Shown piece by piece: positions 10,126-36,618 of a DNA stretch of 64,000 nucleotides (positions are counted from its first letter, which is position 1; each line of letters starts with the position of its first letter). The notes below the pieces were generated by a model that saw nothing but the letters and a program-made list of their open reading frames with translations, was not told the DNA's origin and did no database searches. The stretch lies in NCBI GenBank assembly GCA_038144595.1, contig JAYQOB010000004.1, positions 300,611 to 364,610 of the forward strand. The letters run 5' to 3'. Source of the stretch: Candidatus Poseidoniales archaeon (GTDB taxonomy: Archaea; Thermoplasmatota; Poseidoniia; Poseidoniales; Poseidoniaceae). The position numbers and the translations under genes are program-made.

Positions 10126-14781
<4,656 letters not shown>

Positions 14782-16945: not shown

Positions 16946-19900
16946 TCAACGACGGCGCAGAGGACGAACATAACCGCTCTCATCGTTCCGGCGTTCGTCC
17001 TTCGAGAGGATCTTCGGAGCAGGCGGTGGCATGTGATGGTCCATGCCCAGCAAACCGCCCTGCGACTCAACATGCTCAATATCGGTGTACGTCTCAGCGG
17101 CTTCCTTGGCTTCTTCCTCGAGCGCCGATGGCTCACGCATCACGAGCCATCCCAAGACGAGCGCCACCACGATGAGCGCAATGAAGGTCGCCAGTTCGGA
17201 ACCCGCATCGGCCAGCCAGGATTTCCACTCGTCAGCGCTGAAGTCGGACAACGAGGGCGGACCATCAGGCTCCGGTACCACTTCGATGTCTTCGGTCAAG
17301 ATGTCGCACTGACCCATGCCATCGCAAACTTCCACCAACACGGTGTAGAATCCGGTGGCCTCCCAGGTGTTGATGGTACGGACGGAAGAACCTGCGATGG
17401 GGGTGACCCAATCGTCGGCTGGATCCCCGTTCTCATTTGCATCGGTTTCCGTGTCAAAGTCCCAACGAACGGTGAACTGCGTGAGAATGCGCTCGTCTCG
17501 CTCGGTGATCGAACCGTCCTCAACATCCAAGTCTCGATAGATCTCCATCTCGCTTCCAGCCTCGGCGTCAAACACGTCGGCGTCAAAGGAAATGGAGGAG
17601 CCGGCGAAGATGTTCTCCGGAACGTAGATCTCCCGCGCCTCGGGCGGTTCGTCAACCACCACGGTGAAGGTTTGGCGAGATACATCACCCGTTCCGAACC
17701 CGTCTCGCACGGTGAGCGATACCGTGTAGGTGCCGGGGAGGGTATAGGCGTGCCAGGGCGTCGCCTCGTGAACCAATGGTGTCGCATCGCCGAAGTCCCA
17801 GGTGTATTGGACCAAGCCGTTCCAGTCGGGTGATTCCACTTCAAATGGAACGTATTTGCCCTCGAATTGCCGGTCGCCGTCGCGTGTTCCTGAGGAATCG
17901 AAGTAGAGCATGCGCTCGGGTGCGGTTACCACGGCGCCGTCCTCGTTGAAGGTGTGCGACCATCCGTCGGGGACGGTCCCCTCGGGGAACGGCGTCGAGG
18001 TGGTGATGATGTCGTCCCCAATGTACCCGTCCAAGATGCGGACCTGAATGATGGGGAGTGGGTTGGCGATGCGAACCGTCATGGTACGGGTGAAGCTTTC
18101 CTGCCCGTCCTTGTCGGTGACGACCAAGGACACGGTATGAACGCCGGGGGTGGTGAACGTGTGCGTCGCTTGGGGGCGGTCGCCGAAGGTGCCGTCGGAG
18201 AAGGTCCAGTTCCACACCTCGATGTCCGTTGAATCACCCACTGAACCGTCGGGGTCCATGCTGTCAAGTCCGTCGAAAACGTAAGCAGTGTCGACCTCGC
18301 CGTCTTCCTCTCGGAAGTCGATTTCACGCGAACCCATCGCCGAAAGTGTCCTGACGTCAAAGGTGGCTACGGGCATTTGGTTCAACACCACCACGTTGAG
18401 GACGGCCGTGGCTTGGCTGCCGTCGTCGTCCGTGACCGTGAGCGAGACGGTCTTGTTGCCTGGAACATCCCAAGCAACGATGGGGTTCGTGGCACTGCTG
18501 CTCACCGTTGAGAAGTCATCGTTTCGGGTCGGAGTCCCCGTGCCCACGCGAGCGCCGTCCGGGAAGGACCATGCGTAGGTGAGAAGTTCACCGTCGTCGT
18601 CCACGAACACATCGGGAAGGACCAGGCTGGTGTAGGTCATGGTGGTCAACGTCTCTGCGTAAATTTGGACGGGCACCCTGTTGTTGATGTGAACGAGAAG
18701 CGTCTTCGTTCCGACGTTGATGCCGTCGGAGACCGTCAAGGTGAGGGTGAATGTTTCGCTCTCACCGTCGATGTCGTCCCATTCGTGCTGTTGAGAATAA
18801 ACGCCAACGCCACCGCTTTGCGTGCCATCACCCCAATCCCACTGGAAGTCGAGATGGTCGATGGGAACGTTGTCAACAGAGCGGCCTGCTGAGAAGAGAA
18901 TACGCTGACCAGTGAGCAAGGAAATGTTGTCCTCAATTACCACGTTGTTCACGGTGATGACCGGCAACGGTTCCGTGATGTCACTGACATTGATGGCGTG
19001 GACTTGCGTCTCCGACCAGGTGCCACCTCGGTCCATCACACGCAAGGTGGCGTTGTAGCTTCCGACCTCCGTGTATGATCGGAGGGGCGATTTGAGGTTT
19101 GAAGAAGCGTTGTCGCCAAACACCCACGCATAGGCCGTCGGTGCGTCGAGATAGGGCAGGCTGTTGTTGGACAGCGAGAGGCCCCAGGCATCAAAGCCTG
19201 CACCTCGGAACTGAATGTTCTCCCAGGTCTGAACTTCGGTGAGCGAGACACTCCCGTTGGCCACAGGACGCATGTTGTTGAGCATCTGAGGCGATGTTTG
19301 GAGGGAATCAACCTGATCACCAAGCATGTCCTTCATGACCATGTCAAAGGCGTACTGGTCGGCCAAGGGGGCGGTGAAGTAAACCTGTCCGTCAACGGCC
19401 ACACCGCCACCGGCAGCGATTCTGTCAATGATGGTGTCCACGACCGTGCCACTCGCATCACGAACGGTGATTTCAACATCGAGATCCTCAAAGAAAGCAT
19501 TGGAGAGGACGCCGTAGTTGATTTCCACCGTGTCTTCCATGCCGTCGCCGTCCCGGTCCGAGAGCACCGTGTTGTTGAGCGAAAGCGTAGCAGGCGAAGT
19601 GATTCGGGCGGCTTCAATGTCAACGGTGCCTTCAGGATAGGAGGGGCCACATGAGGTGTAGTCGCAATCCGCCACCGTGGAGGCGTACCAGGTGATCACC
19701 CACACTTCATCGGTCAGGTTGCCGAACCCAGGCACAAGGCCGGTGGCCACGTTGTTCACGAAGTCCAGGTCGGTGACGCTCCACAGACCGTCGGAAACGG
19801 CCTTGGTGACAATCACGCCGTCGAACTGGCTCTTGTCGGCCGTCAAACGAAGGGTCAGCGGTGCTGGTGAAGCGGATCCGGGTGTGAACTGGAACGAGCG

Positions 19901-21151
19901 GATGCCCCAGCCTTCGAGGGTGTTGCCGGTGGAGGACCAGGGGGTTGACCAGTCGCTGTTGATTTCGGTTGGTTGCGCCCTACAAAACGCGCCACCGGTG
20001 CACACAGGGTTGAGGTCAAGGTTCGGGTAGCCGTAGATGCCTTGGTCGGAATCGAGGGTGGCCGCGATGCTGAAGTTTGCAAAGGCCTCGTTCATCGTCC
20101 TCCCAAGCAGACCGACCTGCCCGCTCTGTGGCGAAAGAAGCAGGTTCTCAACACCCCTGCCGCCCGTGGCGGAGTCCTGCACGAGTTGGCGAACAGCTGG
20201 ACCGCCGCCCAAATGCTCAGCGAGGTACAAGGTAAACATGTAGCCCGCCCCGTAGTCCGCAATGCGCTGATTCCACCATCGCACCGATTGTTCGGGTGCA
20301 CCCGTCCATGCGTTCACGTGGCCGGTCAGGGTTGAATCTGCACCGAAGCAGAGGTAAATCGCGACGTCGGCGTTGCCTTCGTCAATCCAGAGGTTCTCGT
20401 AGGGGTCGAGGGCGTTGTGGAGCAAATGCTCGAGTTCGTGTGCGAGGATGGAGCGACCCCAAGAGAGGGTGATGTCGGCGTAATCCACGAACACCGCCTC
20501 TCGGGACGACGAGAAAGAAGGGGCAAAGTAGCCGCCCGTGTTGTACGCACCGTCGATGTCGTAAATGACGATTTGAACCTGACAGTTGTTGTCGATGTCG
20601 GGCGGCGCAAGGCCTCGTCCGTCCTGGTAGTCCTTGCCGTAATAGGTCGTCATGGTGGGGTAAATGGTGGAATCCCAGGTGCTCGCTAAGTTGTTGAGGA
20701 CGGTGGACGAAAGCGTGCGTCCGCTTTGAACGATGAAGGCTACCGTCGTGGTTGTTTTTGCAACGTAGGCAGAAATGGAGCCGCCGGAGATGGGGACCGT
20801 GAGCGTGTCACCAACGACGTGCGGGGTGCAAGCACGACCCGAGGAGCGCCCCATGGATGGCTGAATCACCATGTCATCCACGCCGGGTCGGCCTTCGTCG
20901 ATCCATGCCTGCCGCATGAACTGCGTGGCGGAGACGACGGGCTCTTCTTCATGAATAAACAAATACTCACTTCCTTCACTGGGGTCGAACTCATCCAGAT
21001 CTCCGATGATCACGCCACCGGCATTGTAGGCGTTGGTAGAAGTCCCATCCTCACCACTTTCTGCAGCCACGCTCATCAGCAAAGGCGCCGTGCTGGACAC
21101 GAGCATCAGGAGGACGAAGGCAAAGGCTGGACTGGAGCGCCGTTCCGACAT
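16946..21151 (-). CDS. giant secreted gluzincin-type metallopeptidase with multiple PKD-like repeats and C-terminal TM anchor
   Basis: Signal peptide. HELEH...LWIDEGNAD (HExxH + downstream Glu, similar to the M1-type WLNEGFA motif) at 20378-20440. At least five PKD-like signatures (WVFGDN, WDWGDGT, WSFPDG, WTFSDGT, WDFGDAT). C-terminal TM LATFIALIVVALVLGWLV. ATG at 21151. Confidence 0.8.
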   Translation of the reverse strand: MSERRSSPAFAFVLLMLVSSTAPLLMSVAAESGEDGTSTNAYNAGGVIIGDLDEFDPSEGSEYLFIHEEEPVVSATQFMRQAWIDEGRPGVDDMVIQPSMGRSSGRACTPHVVGDTLTVPISGGSISAYVAKTTTTVAFIVQSGRTLSSTVLNNLASTWDSTIYPTMTTYYGKDYQDGRGLAPPDIDNNCQVQIVIYDIDGAYNTGGYFAPSFSSSREAVFVDYADITLSWGRSILAHELEHLLHNALDPYENLWIDEGNADVAIYLCFGADSTLTGHVNAWTGAPEQSVRWWNQRIADYGAGYMFTLYLAEHLGGGPAVRQLVQDSATGGRGVENLLLSPQSGQVGLLGRTMNEAFANFSIAATLDSDQGIYGYPNLDLNPVCTGGAFCRAQPTEINSDWSTPWSSTGNTLEGWGIRSFQFTPGSASPAPLTLRLTADKSQFDGVIVTKAVSDGLWSVTDLDFVNNVATGLVPGFGNLTDEVWVITWYASTVADCDYTSCGPSYPEGTVDIEAARITSPATLSLNNTVLSDRDGDGMEDTVEINYGVLSNAFFEDLDVEITVRDASGTVVDTIIDRIAAGGGVAVDGQVYFTAPLADQYAFDMVMKDMLGDQVDSLQTSPQMLNNMRPVANGSVSLTEVQTWENIQFRGAGFDAWGLSLSNNSLPYLDAPTAYAWVFGDNASSNLKSPLRSYTEVGSYNATLRVMDRGGTWSETQVHAINVSDITEPLPVITVNNVVIEDNISLLTGQRILFSAGRSVDNVPIDHLDFQWDWGDGTQSGGVGVYSQQHEWDDIDGESETFTLTLTVSDGINVGTKTLLVHINNRVPVQIYAETLTTMTYTSLVLPDVFVDDDGELLTYAWSFPDGARVGTGTPTRNDDFSTVSSSATNPIVAWDVPGNKTVSLTVTDDDGSQATAVLNVVVLNQMPVATFDVRTLSAMGSREIDFREEDGEVDTAYVFDGLDSMDPDGSVGDSTDIEVWNWTFSDGTFGDRPQATHTFTTPGVHTVSLVVTDKDGQESFTRTMTVRIANPLPIIQVRILDGYIGDDIITTSTPFPEGTVPDGWSHTFNEDGAVVTAPERMLYFDSSGTRDGDRQFEGKYVPFEVESPDWNGLVQYTWDFGDATPLVHEATPWHAYTLPGTYTVSLTVRDGFGTGDVSRQTFTVVVDEPPEAREIYVPENIFAGSSISFDADVFDAEAGSEMEIYRDLDVEDGSITERDERILTQFTVRWDFDTETDANENGDPADDWVTPIAGSSVRTINTWEATGFYTVLVEVCDGMGQCDILTEDIEVVPEPDGPPSLSDFSADEWKSWLADAGSELATFIALIVVALVLGWLVMREPSALEEEAKEAAETYTDIEHVESQGGLLGMDHHMPPPAPKILSKDERRNDESGYVRPLRRR

Positions 21152-21208
21152 GTCAAACACCAACGAGAATCGTGTTACGGATTCCCTATTTTGCGAGAAG
21201 AAAGGAGG

Positions 21209-30949: not shown

Positions 30950-32005
30950 ATGGCGACCGTGGAATTCCGGGACAAAGAGAACTTCATGCAGCGAGCAGCC
31001 GCCATTAACCGACGGGTCGAAGGCATCACTCGCAACAACACCATGGCAGGTCTGCTCAACAACAATTTCAAGAAATGGCTGGCCGATTCTGCCATGTCGC
31101 CGGTGAAACTCACCGAGGAACTCGACACCAACAAAGACGGCTTCATCTCGGGCGACGAATTCGCCACGCTTCTCGGAAAAATGACCGGGGAGCGTCCACC
31201 GGAATGGGTGGTTGAACTGGTCTTTTCTTTCGTCAACGCCAACATCAACGACGGCATCCCTGTTCGGGACTGGATGGCGTTTTTGGCCGCCAGCGGCATG
31301 GAGTTCCCTGACGAATTATTCGAAGAAAAGGTGGAGGTCACCGGTGCCATCGGCATCCTTGATGACGCCTACGAAACAGGTCAACAGATCTCCGTTTCAG
31401 TTTCGTTTAACGTTGAAGTCGTGGCCTACGAATTCTCTGTCTTTGACAACGCCACGAGGCAGGAAATCCACGCCTCGCTCACACCTAACGTCGACATGGA
31501 CCGACCCGATTTCGATGAATTCGTCATCGAGCTTGATGAAGCAGGCAACTACACCGCTGAACTTCTGCATCTTGGCGTTCGCCTCGACACGCACGCGTTC
31601 ACCGTCTTGCCAGCGCCGGTGGAACCGGTGGTGGAGCAGGTTGAGGAAACACCGGCACCAGCTGAAGCGCATGAAGCCCCCTCGGAACCCGTCGTGGACG
31701 GCTTCGAATCCTTCGTGGCTCATCTTGAATCCATGAAGCTGCGCAGCGATGCTCAAGCGGTCATCGGGGAATCGGTGACCTTCGGCGTGTCAGCCACTGT
31801 ACAATCCATTTCCCGCACGCTGCTGGGGGTTGACCTGTACCGAAACGGAACCACGGCCCACTGCACGACGGCCGAGGGCACCACCTTCCGCATGATGCTC
31901 AAGCCAACAGAAAACCCACCAGCGGTCGGCCAAAGTCACGAAATGGTGGTCAAGCCCCACGACTGGGACGTCGCGCTCAGGCAGTTGGTCTGTCTCGAGG
32001 TGTGA
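30950..32005 (+). CDS. hypothetical protein with one canonical EF-hand calcium-binding loop
   Basis: DTNKDGFISGDE (31124-31159) fits the 12-residue EF-hand loop D-x-[DNS]-x-[DNS]-G-x-[ILV]-x-x-x-E exactly. The rest is unrecognised. Confidence 0.6.
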   Translation: MATVEFRDKENFMQRAAAINRRVEGITRNNTMAGLLNNNFKKWLADSAMSPVKLTEELDTNKDGFISGDEFATLLGKMTGERPPEWVVELVFSFVNANINDGIPVRDWMAFLAASGMEFPDELFEEKVEVTGAIGILDDAYETGQQISVSVSFNVEVVAYEFSVFDNATRQEIHASLTPNVDMDRPDFDEFVIELDEAGNYTAELLHLGVRLDTHAFTVLPAPVEPVVEQVEETPAPAEAHEAPSEPVVDGFESFVAHLESMKLRSDAQAVIGESVTFGVSATVQSISRTLLGVDLYRNGTTAHCTTAEGTTFRMMLKPTENPPAVGQSHEMVVKPHDWDVALRQLVCLEV

Positions 32006-34448: not shown

Positions 34449-34470
34449 GTTGGAATCTATCAAACAATGC

Positions 34471-34477
34471 TTTATTA
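34471..34477 (+). promoter_or_regulatory. candidate TATA box (TTTATTA) for the 2-TM protein/rhodopsin unit
   Basis: TTTATTA ends 24 nt upstream of ATG 34501, inside the only strongly AT-rich stretch of the window. Confidence 0.4.
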
Positions 34478-34500: not shown

Positions 34501-35511
34501 ATGAACTTTAACATCGTTACGAACATTACCCAACAGGTGTGCCAAACCGATGTGGAAGACATCCGTGAGGTCTATCTTGAAGCCATCTGCGTCCTTGCTG
34601 AAGCATCGACCTCTTTTATTCTGAAACTTGACGGCGGCAAGGCGAAAGTCGTCCGCTCAACCCTTCCGAGTTTACTCAACGTCTCGCTCAAAAGCGACTC
34701 CATCCGATTGGAGGACGATTCCTTTTGCCTGACGGAAGATGAGTTGGCGGCGTGGTCGGCCCTTCCCCCGGTGAGTGACGGGCGCATCAAATCCATCGTC
34801 CTGCGACGATTCACCGTTGGTTCAGAAGGGTACGTCGCTTGTGCTGGTTCCTCTCAAGTCGGCGCCTTCAACCAGGACATCTGCGACCAATTCAACTGGA
34901 CGGCCCCGTTGGGCGCCCACACCATCCGGTTGATTCGAAACTCTGCCAAAAACGAGCGTGAGAAGCGAGACCTCCTCAAAGAGATGGAGGTCATCAAGCA
35001 GGAGTTGGCCGGCGCCCAATCCGCAGCCGACCAACTCGAGGGGTCAAACGCCCAGCTTTCCAACGCTCTTCTCGAGGTATCGAGCGCCAAAGCGCAATCA
35101 AAGGCGCTGCTGCTGACGGTTGGCATCGGTATCATTCTCTTCGCCATCTCAGAATTCCGAATCGAGCCTTGGCTTGAAGCATCGGGCGTCTCCCCTTCCA
35201 CCTTGATCTACCAAAAAGTCCTGATCCTCGGAGGGCTGGTGCCCATTCAGGTGGTCGTTGAACGCTTTATCTCCTCGAAGGTGAACTCCAACGCTTCAGC
35301 CATTCGTGTTTCCATGTACGAGGAAGTGCTTGGCGTGCTCCTCGAAGACGGTGCCCTCTCGGAGAAAGAAATCCGATGGCTTGAGCTCTACCGCCGCCAG
35401 CAAGGCATCCTTCGCGAGGAAGCACAAGCGGTTGAGGCCCGCCTGCGGATGATGATGCTCAAAAATCGCCGTCAAAAATTACAAAACAGCCCGTCGGTTG
35501 TCTCTGCATGA
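34501..35511 (+). CDS. hypothetical coiled-coil protein with 2-TM hairpin and TerB-like C-terminal module, co-oriented with the rhodopsin
   Basis: 336 aa from ATG 34501. N-terminal ~150-aa soluble domain, coiled coil (NEREKRDLLKEMEVIKQELAGAQSAADQLEGSNAQLSNALLEVSS), TM1 ALLLTVGIGIILFAISEF, TM2 VLILGGLVPIQVVVERFI, then EDGALSEKEIRWLELYRRQQGILREEAQ. The stop is 13 nt before the rhodopsin ATG. Confidence 0.6.
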   Translation: MNFNIVTNITQQVCQTDVEDIREVYLEAICVLAEASTSFILKLDGGKAKVVRSTLPSLLNVSLKSDSIRLEDDSFCLTEDELAAWSALPPVSDGRIKSIVLRRFTVGSEGYVACAGSSQVGAFNQDICDQFNWTAPLGAHTIRLIRNSAKNEREKRDLLKEMEVIKQELAGAQSAADQLEGSNAQLSNALLEVSSAKAQSKALLLTVGIGIILFAISEFRIEPWLEASGVSPSTLIYQKVLILGGLVPIQVVVERFISSKVNSNASAIRVSMYEEVLGVLLEDGALSEKEIRWLELYRRQQGILREEAQAVEARLRMMMLKNRRQKLQNSPSVVSA

Positions 35512-35524
35512 AGGACGTGAATCC

Positions 35525-36538
35525 ATGAATCAACGCAAATACAGTACCCGTGCTCTCACCGCAACGCTCGTTCTCATTTTGGCTTTGTTGCCAACCGTCT
35601 CGGCTGCGGGTGGCTCGACCTTTGAAAACGGCGACGCAATGACCGGGCTTGAGCGAGTCACGTACATCTCGTTCGTGGCCATCAGCCTGATGTTCATCGC
35701 TGCTGCGTTCTTCTTGTTCATGGAACGCAACGACGTCGCACGCCGCCACCGCCCAGCCATTGGCATCGGCGTGATGATTGTCGGCATTGCTGGGTTCCAA
35801 TACGCCCTCATGCAGGACGTGTACATCGCTGACGGCTCCATCCCCACCGACTTCAGGTACGCCGACTGGTTGACCACCGTGCCTCTGATGGCCGTGACCT
35901 TTGCCGTTCTCGCTGGTCGAGAATCGTTCACCAACCACCGCTTGTTCAGCCTGCCCGGCATGTCGGTACCCGGCATCATCATCGTTGGTTCGTTGTTCAT
36001 GATGATCGGTGGCTACATCGGCCAGGTTGAGCTCGACCAGGCACTGATCGAGGGGGTTGAACCTTCCGGAACACACTGGTTCTTCTTCGCTCAGGGCATG
36101 ATTGGCTACCTGACCGTCTTCCTCATCGTTGGAACCCCATTCTCGGGCTCCTACGGCATCGACGACACCAAAATCGATGACGATTCCATCCGCCAAACCA
36201 TGGATCGCCTCCGCCGACTGGTGCTCTTTGGTTGGCTTATCTACCCTGCAGGCTACGTTGTCGGCGCCCTCGAGTTGGGTGGCGCAGGTGGGGCCGCTGG
36301 CATGATGCTGGTCTACAACCTCGCTGACCTCGTCAACAAGTTGGCCTTTGTTATCATCGTGCTCGTGGGGGCACGAGCCACCGAAGAAGCCCAAGCGGCG
36401 TACGATTCAACCCTCACCCACACACCAACCGTGGCGAAAACCGAGCGAGAGGAAGATGAGGACCACCGAGACAGCCTCCGTGAACTGGCCGCTCTCGCTT
36501 CTGAGATCGCCGATGAAGAGATCAGCGGCGAACTTTGA
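35525..36538 (+). CDS. type-1 microbial rhodopsin, proteorhodopsin-like
   Basis: Signal peptide plus seven TM helices. Helix C FRYADWLTTVPLM, helix F GWLIYPAGY, helix G YNLADLVNK (Schiff-base Lys). The track ORF begins at TTG 35498; the first ATG is at 35525. Confidence 0.9.
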   Translation: MNQRKYSTRALTATLVLILALLPTVSAAGGSTFENGDAMTGLERVTYISFVAISLMFIAAAFFLFMERNDVARRHRPAIGIGVMIVGIAGFQYALMQDVYIADGSIPTDFRYADWLTTVPLMAVTFAVLAGRESFTNHRLFSLPGMSVPGIIIVGSLFMMIGGYIGQVELDQALIEGVEPSGTHWFFFAQGMIGYLTVFLIVGTPFSGSYGIDDTKIDDDSIRQTMDRLRRLVLFGWLIYPAGYVVGALELGGAGGAAGMMLVYNLADLVNKLAFVIIVLVGARATEEAQAAYDSTLTHTPTVAKTEREEDEDHRDSLRELAALASEIADEEISGEL

Positions 36539-36618
36539 TCGGTGCAAGCTTCGCACTGCGATGTGGTGAATGGGTGGCTTCATGAGGGAGAGGCGCCGCC
36601 GTTGAGGTGAGGGGAAAC

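What the first reader, a model, noticed from the sequence alone, without database searches (positions are those of the whole stretch)
34501..35524. Two-TM coiled-coil protein encoded 13 nt upstream of the rhodopsin, in an htr-sop-like operon layout
The 336-aa ORF ends at 35511 and the rhodopsin ATG is at 35525 on the same strand, with no room for a separate promoter. The predicted architecture is a soluble N-terminal domain (~150 aa), a ~50-aa heptad-like coiled coil, a TM hairpin (residues ~202-219 and ~239-256, with a ~19-aa outer loop) and a cytoplasmic helical module with a basic tail (RLRMMMLKNRRQKLQ). In haloarchaea the 2-TM transducers HtrI/HtrII are encoded immediately upstream of sopI/sopII and co-transcribed with them. 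This protein has no HAMP or methyl-accepting signature that I can see. If it is a partner, it would be a non-MCP type of rhodopsin-associated signalling or regulatory protein. Together with the donor-less rhodopsin, this is my best candidate in the window for an undescribed two-gene system.
Basis: inference. Interest (0 to 1): 0.7.

Follow-up and report, generated by a model that had tools for sequence, protein, structure and literature searches.

The report
Rhodopsin with a conserved GAF-hairpin partner
In the abundant marine archaea Poseidoniales (Marine Group II), a proteorhodopsin-like gene without a proton donor is nearly always co-transcribed with an unnamed membrane signalling protein, which points to an undescribed, chemotaxis-independent way of handling light in these cells.

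Summary
A 336-aa ORF (34501-35511) ends 13 nt before a PF01036 rhodopsin (35525-36538). Both sit behind one conserved archaeal BRE/TATA promoter, with a Shine-Dalgarno-like spacer between them. The pair is a conserved cassette in Poseidoniales. Every partner homologue (44-97% identity) lies -4 to +16 nt upstream of this rhodopsin clade, in at least 5 different flanking contexts. Rhodopsins of the clade that lack the ~55-aa C-terminal tail also lack the partner.

The partner is not an Htr/MCP. It consists of a GAF domain, a signalling helix, a 2-TM hairpin and a TerB-like helical unit. No Pfam or NCBIfam model covers the hairpin. A ~200-aa paralogue of the helix-hairpin-TerB core always follows an H-NOX gene in the same archaea. 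The hairpin module also ends REC, PAS, TPR and GAF proteins elsewhere.

Best reading: a light-input/transducer pair with a new kind of membrane-hairpin output. The main rival is a donor-less proton pump with a regulatory subunit. Neither the direction of signalling nor the output is shown. I could not settle how this rhodopsin relates to the published "Archaea clade B".

The parts
34463..34477 (+). BRE/TATA-like promoter element (AACAATGCTTTATTA). It ends about 23 nt upstream of the partner ATG, which implies a leaderless or near-leaderless bicistronic mRNA.
   Evidence: The same motif (AACAAtGcTTTAT[t/g]tA) lies at the same distance in nearly all homologous loci, at 44-100% protein identity. 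The region is AT-rich (GC 0.44).
34501..35511 (+). Partner gene, 336 aa: GAF, signalling helix, 2-TM hairpin, TerB-like unit and basic tail.
   Evidence: ORF. 20 homologue clusters at 44-97% identity, all unnamed and without Pfam hits. AF2 model. Always upstream of the rhodopsin.
34501..34899 (+). GAF-fold domain (residues 1-133).
   Evidence: pLDDT about 88. Foldseek hits to PDB GAF domains: 6oza_A E 3e-6, 3cit, 3k2n, probability 1.0. The distant full-length homologue P0222 (hhalign 99.6%) passes Pfam GAF at 23.4 bits against a cut-off of 22.4. There is no direct Pfam hit for the window protein.
34900..35103 (+). Long signalling helix or coiled coil (residues 134-201). The membrane-proximal part (176-201, ADQLEGxNAQLSNALLEVSSAKAQSK) is nearly invariant.
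   Evidence: Continuous helix 134-228 in the model. Heptad d-positions are L,L,N,L,I,A,L,L,V. Column identity is 0.93 for residues 176-201 against 0.56 for 134-175.
35104..35268 (+). 2-TM hairpin (TM1 202-219, loop 220-238, TM2 239-256) with the family motif SEF-x2-EP-x-LE ... K ... L-x-P-x-(E/Q).
   Evidence: Hydropathy peaks. Column identity 0.85-0.92. The motif is invariant in the partner and in the H-NOX-linked paralogue, and is kept in REC/PAS/TPR/GAF/stand-alone proteins. No Pfam or NCBIfam model matches it.
35311..35448 (+). TerB-like helical unit (residues 271-316, MYEEVL..LEDGALSEKEIRWLELYRRQQGI..EEAQAVEA).
   Evidence: Profile positions 170-230 of the core HMM hit proteins that carry 2-8 copies of this unit. 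Pfam labels those proteins TerB (PF05099) or Tic110 repeats. Column identity 0.86. The window protein has no direct Pfam TerB hit.
35512..35524 (+). 13-nt intergenic spacer with a Shine-Dalgarno-like AGGACGTGA.
   Evidence: Sequence. Equivalent spacers elsewhere carry GGTGA or AGGAG.TGA, or the genes overlap; the range is -4 to +16 nt.
35525..36538 (+). Proteorhodopsin-like rhodopsin, 337 aa. It has a signal peptide, D97/T101 present, no carboxylate or Lys at 108, M105, the Schiff-base Lys, and extended conserved cytoplasmic loops.
   Evidence: PF01036 E 1.7e-31. Best PDB sequence match is green proteorhodopsin, E 8e-27, with E108 aligned to Thr. Clade alignment. AF2 7TM model with Foldseek TM-score 0.84-0.87 to GPR/BPR. 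Loop conservation.
36377..36535 (+). Cytoplasmic C-terminal tail of the rhodopsin (residues 285-337). It is acidic, with the conserved amphipathic motif (S/D)(G/S)L(L/R)ELAAL and an acidic end (..EL/DL).
   Evidence: Alignment. The tail is absent or truncated exactly in those clade members that lack the partner gene. Low pLDDT, as expected for a segment that folds on binding.

Best explanation
The finding is a conserved bicistronic operon of Poseidoniales (MGII archaea). It encodes a retinal-type, proteorhodopsin-like photoreceptor without a proton donor, and a dedicated membrane-anchored signalling protein of an undescribed family.

Proposed mechanism:
- The partner dimerises through its long signalling helix and sits in the membrane by a 2-TM hairpin, with both ends in the cytoplasm.
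- The rhodopsin docks to it through its acidic C-terminal tail and conserved cytoplasmic loops, and possibly by lateral TM contact.
- Light-driven movement on the cytoplasmic side of the rhodopsin passes to the near-invariant juxtamembrane helix and hairpin. This changes the state of the GAF and TerB-like modules and/or of the hairpin itself, which is the family's common output element.
- A paralogous helix-hairpin-TerB protein does the same job for an H-NOX gas sensor.

Shown: operon structure, strict co-occurrence, domain composition, the existence of the paralogue, and the wider hairpin family.

Inferred: physical contact, direction of signalling, sensory rather than pumping photochemistry, and what the output is.
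For: 1. Operon. One conserved BRE/TATA lies at a fixed distance from the partner ATG. The junction to the rhodopsin is SD-like or overlapping, at -4 to +16 nt.

2. Synteny from the partner side. Seven look-ups of homologues at 44-72% identity, plus four Poseidonia MAG loci, all have the rhodopsin directly downstream, while the outer flanks differ. The flank pairs are PRTase/Dph2, H-NOX operon/Kelch, GrpE/SRAP, AA-kinase/Rib5P isomerase and S8 peptidase/CD36.

3. Synteny from the rhodopsin side. Every tail-bearing clade member with upstream DNA has the partner.

4. Joint loss. The 304-aa group is nested in the NJ tree and the 291-aa form is basal. Both lack the tail and the partner.

5. Signalling anatomy. 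The partner has a GAF fold and a signalling helix. The hairpin module is found at the C-terminus of REC, REC-PAS, PAS, TPR and GAF proteins, with library-wide E-values of 1e-13 to 1e-16.

6. Paralogue. A paralogue of the core lies immediately downstream of an H-NOX gene in 7 loci with 4 different contexts, and once with a stand-alone GAF gene.

7. Rhodopsin features. No residue capable of acting as donor occurs at position 108 in any of 19 clade members (T/S/M/V/C/L). The retinal-pocket residues and the Lys are kept. The cytoplasmic loops are as conserved as the TM core (0.81-0.95), against 0.55-0.71 for the D-E and F-G loops.

8. Poseidoniales lack identifiable chemotaxis genes (Rinke 2019), so an Htr-CheA route is not available.
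Against: - There is no experimental or modelled contact between the two proteins. A complex prediction could not be run.
- Lack of a donor does not prove a sensor. DTG/DTS rhodopsins pump protons without one (PMC8927995, listed).
- Published surveys report a single rhodopsin per MGII MAG and read it as a pump. If this is the only rhodopsin in the genome, an energy role is more plausible.
- In the wider family the hairpin sits C-terminal to the input domains. The signal could therefore run from the GAF domain to the membrane, and so to the rhodopsin, rather than the other way.
- The hairpin's conserved residues are shared with the H-NOX-linked and bacterial members, so they are not a rhodopsin-specific interface.
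- No output is known.
- The rhodopsin tree is only a neighbour-joining tree of 24 sequences.
Confidence: 0.5

Rival explanations
1. Regulated pump. The rhodopsin is a light-driven outward proton pump that works without a carboxylic donor, as DTG/DTS rhodopsins do. The partner is its regulatory subunit. The GAF domain senses a cytoplasmic ligand or state, and the signalling helix and hairpin switch or tune the pump, or tie it to another membrane process.
For: The acceptor Asp, Thr101, Arg94, Asp227 and Lys are all present, and the fold is closest to green and blue proteorhodopsin pumps. MGII MAGs are reported to carry one rhodopsin each, read as a pump. In REC/PAS/TPR relatives the hairpin is the C-terminal, output-side element, which fits signalling from cytoplasm to membrane. 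Tail-less members of the clade exist without the partner, as expected if the rhodopsin can work alone.
Against: There is no donor-type residue at position 108 in any member. His75 of the PR counterion pair is replaced by a nearly invariant Gln. The long conserved cytoplasmic loops and tail are unusual for PR pumps. The analogous H-NOX pair links the same core to a protein that is purely a sensor. No regulated microbial rhodopsin pump of this kind is known (own knowledge).
Confidence: 0.3
2. Scaffold or assembly factor. The partner organises, oligomerises or localises the rhodopsin in the membrane, as has been proposed for flotillin with FArhodopsins, and has no signalling role. The rhodopsin might even be retinal-free.
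For: There is a precedent: PR paralogues with DTT/DTL/DNI motifs are encoded 16 nt from a flotillin gene on the same strand. PsFAR does not bind retinal. The partner has a long coiled coil and a membrane hairpin, the same general parts as bacterial flotillins.
Against: No SPFH/Band_7 domain was found. GAF, a signalling helix and membership of a family with REC/PAS inputs point to signalling. The rhodopsin keeps the usual retinal-pocket residues (DW, WxxYPxGY, ADxxNK). By sequence it is closer to GPR (E 8e-27) than to PsFAR (E 7e-18).
Confidence: 0.12
3. Coincidental operon. The two genes are co-transcribed but functionally unrelated.
For: Archaeal operons sometimes combine unrelated genes. No interaction has been demonstrated.
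Against: The adjacency holds down to 44% partner identity, across 42-65% GC and through at least 5 rearranged neighbourhoods. Loss of the partner coincides with loss of the rhodopsin tail.
Confidence: 0.04

Closest known systems
Haloarchaeal sensory rhodopsin-transducer operons (htrI-sopI, htrII-sopII)
   Same: The gene for a 2-TM, coiled-coil, dimer-type membrane protein lies immediately upstream of, and is co-transcribed with, a rhodopsin that lacks the carboxylic proton donor. Both termini of the 2-TM protein are predicted to be cytoplasmic.
   Different: The partner has no HAMP domain, no methyl-accepting signalling domain and no Che coupling. Its large domain (GAF) lies N-terminal to the TM hairpin, whereas the Htr signalling domain lies C-terminal. 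The rhodopsin is of the proteorhodopsin type, not the bacteriorhodopsin/SR type. There is no sequence homology between the partner and Htr.
Proteo-SR with Htr-like transducers (PMC10519204)
   Same: These are proteorhodopsin-related rhodopsins with a non-carboxylic residue at the donor position that are thought to be sensors because of their gene neighbourhood.
   Different: Proteo-SRs have a Y(T/C)M helix-C motif and sit next to Htr, CheA, CheW and CheY genes. Here the acceptor Asp is kept (D-T-T/S/M/V/C/L), and the neighbour is a GAF-hairpin protein in a lineage without che genes.
Flotillin-associated rhodopsins (FArhodopsins) of SAR11, HIMB59 and Pseudothioglobus
   Same: A PR paralogue with a DTT-type motif is encoded a few nucleotides from a non-MCP coiled-coil membrane protein on the same strand (16-nt spacer). 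Its function is unknown.
   Different: That partner is an SPFH flotillin, not a GAF-hairpin protein. FArhodopsins lack the N-terminal leader and do not bind retinal (H84/E120 block). The archaeal clade keeps the leader and the pocket residues and is closer to GPR. The hosts are bacterial and the gene sits in a 26-kb accessory cluster.
H-NOX with adjacent signalling partners (bacterial HnoX-HnoK, H-NOX-DGC, H-NOX-MCP)
   Same: A stand-alone sensor protein is encoded next to its effector. In Poseidoniales the H-NOX gene is followed by the paralogue of the partner's core.
   Different: Known H-NOX partners are histidine kinases, GGDEF/EAL proteins or MCPs (own knowledge). Here the partner is a ~200-aa coiled-coil, TM-hairpin, TerB-like protein with no known catalytic domain.
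MGII rhodopsin clades described so far (Archaea clade A/'DP': Q105, E108; Archaea clade B/'SP'/ACB: M105, K108, mostly Leu at the fenestration position)
   Same: The host group is the same, Met is at position 105 as in clade B, and the fold is PR-like.
   Different: Position 108 is never Lys or Glu, and the fenestration position (GPR F152) is an invariant Phe. No paper I could search mentions an upstream partner gene.

Membership tests
Htr / methyl-accepting transducer (MCP) | HAMP domain after TM2 | tested here: not met
   No HAMP hit in Pfam or NCBIfam at E up to 0.1-1. TM2 is followed by a short linker and a TerB-like unit.
Htr / methyl-accepting transducer (MCP) | Methyl-accepting signalling domain (PF00015) that couples to CheA/CheW | tested here: not met
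   No MCPsignal hit. Poseidoniales are reported to lack identifiable chemotaxis genes.
Htr / methyl-accepting transducer (MCP) | Two TM helices binding rhodopsin helices F/G | not testable with these tools
   Two TM segments are present, but a complex prediction or experiment could not be run.
GAF domain superfamily | GAF alpha/beta fold | tested here: met
   Foldseek top 50 are GAF domains, E 3e-6 to 1e-4, probability 1.0. Homologue P0222 passes the Pfam GAF gathering score. A direct Pfam scan and BLAST against a neighbouring GAF protein were negative.
GAF domain superfamily | Small-molecule (cNMP, tetrapyrrole or other) binding pocket | not tested
   The conserved residues (R52, T54, P56-S57, W85, D93-G94-R95, C114) were not mapped onto known ligand sites.
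TerB-like helical domain (PF05099) | Sequence match to the TerB profile | tested here: inconclusive
   The window protein has no Pfam TerB hit. However, the core HMM's C-terminal 60 positions hit multi-repeat proteins that Pfam calls TerB or Tic110. Only one unit is present, about half a TerB domain.
Flotillin / SPFH (partner of FArhodopsins) | SPFH/Band_7 domain | tested here: not met
   No such hit.
Microbial (type-1) rhodopsin, PF01036 | 7TM fold, Schiff-base Lys in helix G, retinal-pocket residues | tested here: met
   PF01036 at 109.9 bits. K272 lies in ADLVNK, and W115, W237, Y240 and P241 are conserved. The AF2 model has 7 TM helices, TM-score 0.84-0.87 to proteorhodopsins. Retinal binding itself was not tested.
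Proteorhodopsin proton pump (DTE) | Carboxylic proton donor at position 108 and the His75-Asp97 pair | tested here: not met
   Position 108 is T/S/M/V/C/L in 19 of 19 sequences. Position 75 is a nearly invariant Gln.
Archaea clade B (ACB / 'SP') rhodopsins of MGII | Lys at position 108 (Rinke 2019, Tully 2019) and Leu at the fenestration position in most members (Nat Microbiol 2025) | tested here: not met
   There is no Lys at 108, and Phe is invariant at the position aligned to GPR F152. This compares against published descriptions only. No ACB sequence was available, so clade membership by phylogeny remains untested.
New 'helix-hairpin' module family (unnamed) | Coiled coil running into TM1, then SE-x3-EP-x2-E, a short loop, K, and TM2 with L-x-P-x-E/D, at the C-terminal end of signalling proteins | tested here: met
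   Profile search: 917 representatives at E<=1e-3 and 103 at E<=1e-10. Alignment across six architectures has invariant E, E, K, L and P. The module is absent from Pfam and NCBIfam.

The most novel reading that the evidence does not exclude
The helix plus 2-TM hairpin (SE-x3-EP-x2-E ... K ... P-x-E) is a previously unrecognised signalling output module that acts in the membrane itself, for example as a gated ion path or by controlling a membrane machine. In Poseidoniales it has been wired to two different sensors, a rhodopsin for light and an H-NOX for gas. This would give the ocean's most abundant planktonic archaea a Che-independent photosensory and gas-sensory pathway. It would also mean that part of what is counted as MGII 'proteorhodopsin phototrophy' is really light sensing.
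Probability: 0.3. Interest if true: 0.88.

Novelty: new variant of a known kind. Interest (0 to 1): 0.72.

Why it matters
MGII/Poseidoniales are among the most abundant archaea in surface oceans. Their rhodopsins are routinely counted as proton pumps in estimates of light-driven energy capture. This clade lacks a donor and is tied to a GAF-containing membrane partner, so these rhodopsins are either photosensors or regulated pumps. Either way, the way MGII 'phototrophy' is inferred from gene presence would need to change.

The partner also reveals an unnamed membrane-hairpin module. It is found after REC, PAS, TPR and GAF domains in hundreds of protein clusters, and next to H-NOX genes in archaea. 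It is a candidate new output type for one- and two-component signalling.

The pair is small (two genes, about 2 kb) and can be tested directly by co-expression in E. coli.

Tried and rejected
- Sequence searches of the partner gave nothing usable in Pfam, NCBIfam, PHROGs, PADLOC or PDB. The only hits were coiled-coil noise and SarA at E 0.1.
- BLAST of the N-domain against the stand-alone GAF protein of the H-NOX operon was negative. The GAF assignment therefore rests on the fold and on a transitive homologue.
- I tried to decide whether the rhodopsin is the published Archaea clade B. The ACB-G35 sequence is not in the held text, and no supplements are held. Cluster look-ups gave no matching accession. 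Pinhassi 2016 is not held. Only published descriptors could be compared.
- I tried to learn the taxonomy and annotation of the distant hairpin-bearing proteins. Cluster look-up gave no names. tblastn against plasmids matched only their REC/PAS parts or nothing.
- I asked whether the tail-less rhodopsins sit in the 'canonical' MGIIa rhodopsin neighbourhood (GGGPS, ABC transporter, purQ/L, uvrA). Only an ABC ATPase matches, so this is undecided.
- A phage or defence origin was considered and rejected. The window is core chromosome: gyrase, SMC, A-ATPase, Cdc6, aIF2-gamma.
- The longer TTG ORF from 34354 was rejected as the real start because of the conserved TATA position.
Full report
**Observation.** The window is a chromosomal stretch of a Poseidonia-like archaeon (Marine Group II, Poseidoniales). 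Four MAG contigs titled 'Poseidonia sp.' or 'Methanobacteriota archaeon' carry the same genes. Six loci share the order acyl-CoA dehydrogenase, GcvH, phosphoribosyltransferase, ORF, rhodopsin, Dph2, Cdc6. The rest of the window is housekeeping: gyrase, SMC, HMG-CoA reductase and the A-ATPase A/B subunits.

The ORF runs from ATG 34501 to TGA 35511 and encodes 336 aa. The rhodopsin ATG is at 35525, 13 nt downstream on the same strand. An AT-rich element, AACAATGCTTTATTA (34463-34477), ends about 23 nt before ATG 34501. The same BRE/TATA-like motif lies at the same distance in nearly all homologous loci. The spacer to the rhodopsin carries GGTGA or AGGAG.TGA-like Shine-Dalgarno sequences, or the genes overlap. 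Across 27 loci the spacer is -4 to +16 nt. The two genes are therefore one operon with a leaderless-type first gene. ATG 34501, not the upstream TTG, is the start.

**Anatomy of the partner.** Hydropathy gives two peaks, around residues 210 and 246-249. The AlphaFold2 model (21-sequence alignment, mean pLDDT 79) shows:
- an alpha/beta domain at 1-133 (pLDDT about 88);
- one helix from 134 to 228;
- a turn at 229-231;
- a helix at 232-282;
- two further helices.

Foldseek against the PDB returns only GAF domains at the top: phytochrome GAF 6oza E 3e-6, histidine-kinase GAF 3cit, and the sigma-54 regulator GAF 3k2n. A distant full-length homologue, P0222 (hhalign probability 99.6%, 27% identity), passes the Pfam GAF threshold. 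The window protein itself has no Pfam, NCBIfam, PHROGs, PADLOC or PDB sequence match.

Conservation is uneven. The GAF domain has column identity 0.62 and the first part of the helix 0.56. The juxtamembrane helix, both TM segments, the loop and the C-terminal unit have 0.85-0.93. The N-domain is a GAF domain, and there is no HAMP or MCP domain.

**Synteny.** The protein has 20 homologue clusters at 44-97% identity, all unnamed. Seven were looked up. In each, a ~335-aa Bac_rhodopsin gene follows directly, while the outer neighbours differ:
- GrpE and SRAP;
- an H-NOX operon and a Kelch protein;
- AspRS/AA-kinase and ribose-5-P isomerase;
- an S8 peptidase and CD36.

The loci range from 42 to 65% GC, so several genera are involved. 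In the reverse direction, the rhodopsin has 27 close clusters at 54-96% identity. Loci fetched through the rhodopsin have the partner upstream whenever the rhodopsin is full length and upstream DNA is present.

There are two informative exceptions. A 304-aa group (L028-L034, L038/39) and a 291-aa form (L037) lack the ~55-aa C-terminal tail, and both lack the partner gene. In a neighbour-joining tree rooted on green proteorhodopsin, the 304-aa group is nested among tail-and-partner lineages and the 291-aa form is basal. The tail and the partner were thus lost together at least once. This is the strongest indirect evidence that the two proteins work together, and it points to the tail as a contact site.

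**The rhodopsin.** It is a proteorhodopsin-type protein. The best PDB sequence match is GPR at E 8e-27, and the Foldseek TM-score to GPR/BPR is 0.84-0.87. It has a signal peptide. R94, D97, T101, D227 and the Schiff-base Lys are kept, and Met is at position 105.
- Position 108 is T/S/M/V/C/L in all 19 aligned members.
- His75 is replaced by Gln.
- The retinal-pocket residues are kept. This differs from flotillin-associated rhodopsins, which share a DTT motif but do not bind retinal.
- The C-D and E-F cytoplasmic loops are long. Together with the A-B turn they are as conserved as the TM core (0.81-0.95), while the D-E and F-G outer loops are less so (0.55-0.71).
- The tail is acidic, has a conserved ...L(L/R)ELAAL... 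motif, and is predicted with low confidence.

These features suggest a cytoplasmic protein-binding surface. They do not prove a sensory function.

**Relation to published MGII rhodopsins.** Rinke 2019 and Tully 2019 describe two clades: Q105/E108, and M105/K108 ('SP', Archaea clade B). They report one rhodopsin per MAG. A 2025 paper says most clade-B rhodopsins have Leu at the fenestration position. The present clade has no Lys at 108 and an invariant Phe at the position aligned to GPR F152. It does not fit those descriptions. I could not obtain an ACB sequence for a direct comparison. I also could not check whether genomes with this cassette carry a second rhodopsin. None of the papers I could search mentions an upstream partner gene.

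**A paralogue and a wider family.** A tblastn search of the fetched loci showed a second, weaker match to residues ~178-324 of the partner. It is a ~200-aa protein (coiled coil, hairpin, C-terminal unit; 36% identity) encoded directly downstream of an H-NOX gene (PF07700, E 2e-39, with the YxSxR motif). It has 56 clusters, all Poseidoniales hypothetical proteins. The H-NOX-then-paralogue order holds in four different contexts, once with a stand-alone GAF gene in front. In several genomes this operon lies back-to-back with the partner-rhodopsin operon.

I searched a profile of the shared core against 1.84 billion representative proteins. It found 917 hits at E <= 1e-3, of two kinds:
1. The coiled coil plus hairpin occurs at the C-terminus of REC, REC-PAS, PAS, TPR and GAF proteins, and in ~175-aa stand-alone proteins. 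The motif SE-x3-EP-x2-E, then K, then L-x-P-x-E/D is conserved, and a basic stretch follows TM2.
2. The last ~60 residues match repeats that Pfam calls TerB or Tic110.

Neither Pfam nor NCBIfam has a model for the hairpin module. The partner is thus a member of an unnamed family in which a membrane hairpin is the terminal element after typical input domains.

**Mechanism.** My best reading (about 0.5) is a light-signalling pair.
- The rhodopsin is the input.
- The partner is a dimeric membrane-anchored transducer. It receives the signal through the rhodopsin's tail and loops, and possibly through lateral TM contact.
- The signal passes through the invariant juxtamembrane helix to its GAF and TerB-like parts, or to the hairpin itself.

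The H-NOX pair is the gas-sensing counterpart. The reported absence of chemotaxis genes in Poseidoniales explains why the transducer is not an Htr.

The main rival (about 0.3) is that the rhodopsin is a donor-less proton pump like the DTG/DTS rhodopsins, and that the GAF protein regulates it. This fits the position of the hairpin on the output side in relatives, and the 'one rhodopsin per MAG' reports. A flotillin-like scaffold role (about 0.12) and a coincidental operon (about 0.04) are less likely.

Shown: the operon, the co-occurrence, the joint loss, the domains, the paralogue and the family. Inferred: the contact, the direction of signalling, the photochemistry and the output.

**Verdict.** It is a new variant of the known 'rhodopsin plus dedicated partner' theme. 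The partner family itself is undescribed, and the module may be of broader importance.

Noticed in passing
L007 5381-5926 (-) and 4752-5351 (-); also L003, L012, L014, L015/16, L017/18, L027: Poseidoniales archaea carry stand-alone H-NOX (PF07700, YxSxR present) genes. Each is followed by a ~200-aa coiled-coil/TM-hairpin/TerB-like protein that is a paralogue of the rhodopsin partner. I found no paper in the searchable library describing H-NOX in this group.
   Followed up: partly
L017 1085-1540 (+), L018 1102-1557 (+): A 151-aa stand-alone GAF gene (PF01590, E 1e-9) sits directly upstream of the H-NOX gene in one lineage. This gives GAF + H-NOX + hairpin protein, the same parts that are partly fused in the rhodopsin partner.
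   Followed up: partly
L029 1814-2338 (+), L038 627-1262 (+): The tail-less, partner-less rhodopsins are preceded on the same strand by a different Pfam-less protein with two predicted TM segments and a long acidic tail. They are followed by a fatty-acid-desaturase-family gene and PhoU/PHO4 genes. It is unclear whether the small 2-TM protein replaces the partner.
   Followed up: no
proteins P0234, P0263, P0247, P0273, P0260, P0236 and others: The coiled-coil plus TM-hairpin module ends REC, REC-PAS, PAS and TPR proteins of unknown taxonomy. The REC and linker region of P0234 resembles the NCBIfam 'NosR family' nitric-oxide-linked response regulator (NF053512, E 1e-47, below cut-off). This hints at a link between this module and NO signalling outside archaea as well.
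   Followed up: partly
window 12833-13600 (-) and 13597-14781 (-): DNA gyrase B is split into two ORFs that overlap by 4 nt: HATPase_c + DNA_gyraseB, and Toprim + GyrB_C. This is either a genuine split gene or a frameshift in the assembly.
   Followed up: no
window 30950-32005 (+): A 351-aa protein has only a weak single EF-hand match (E 2e-4, below cut-off) and an acidic, low-complexity C-terminal half. Its function is unknown.
   Followed up: no
window 36541-36557 (+): A short inverted repeat (GTGCAAGCTTCGCAC) lies directly after the rhodopsin stop codon, without a T-run. Dph2 probably starts at ATG 36620 behind a GAGGTGA Shine-Dalgarno sequence, so read-through into Dph2 cannot be excluded. 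The downstream gene differs in other lineages.
   Followed up: no
window 16946-21163 (-): A 1405-aa secreted-type protein has multiple PKD domains. Other cassette loci have giant Kelch or PKD/collagen-like surface proteins nearby (L002, L007, L017), which is typical of the MGII particle-adhesion gene repertoire.
   Followed up: no
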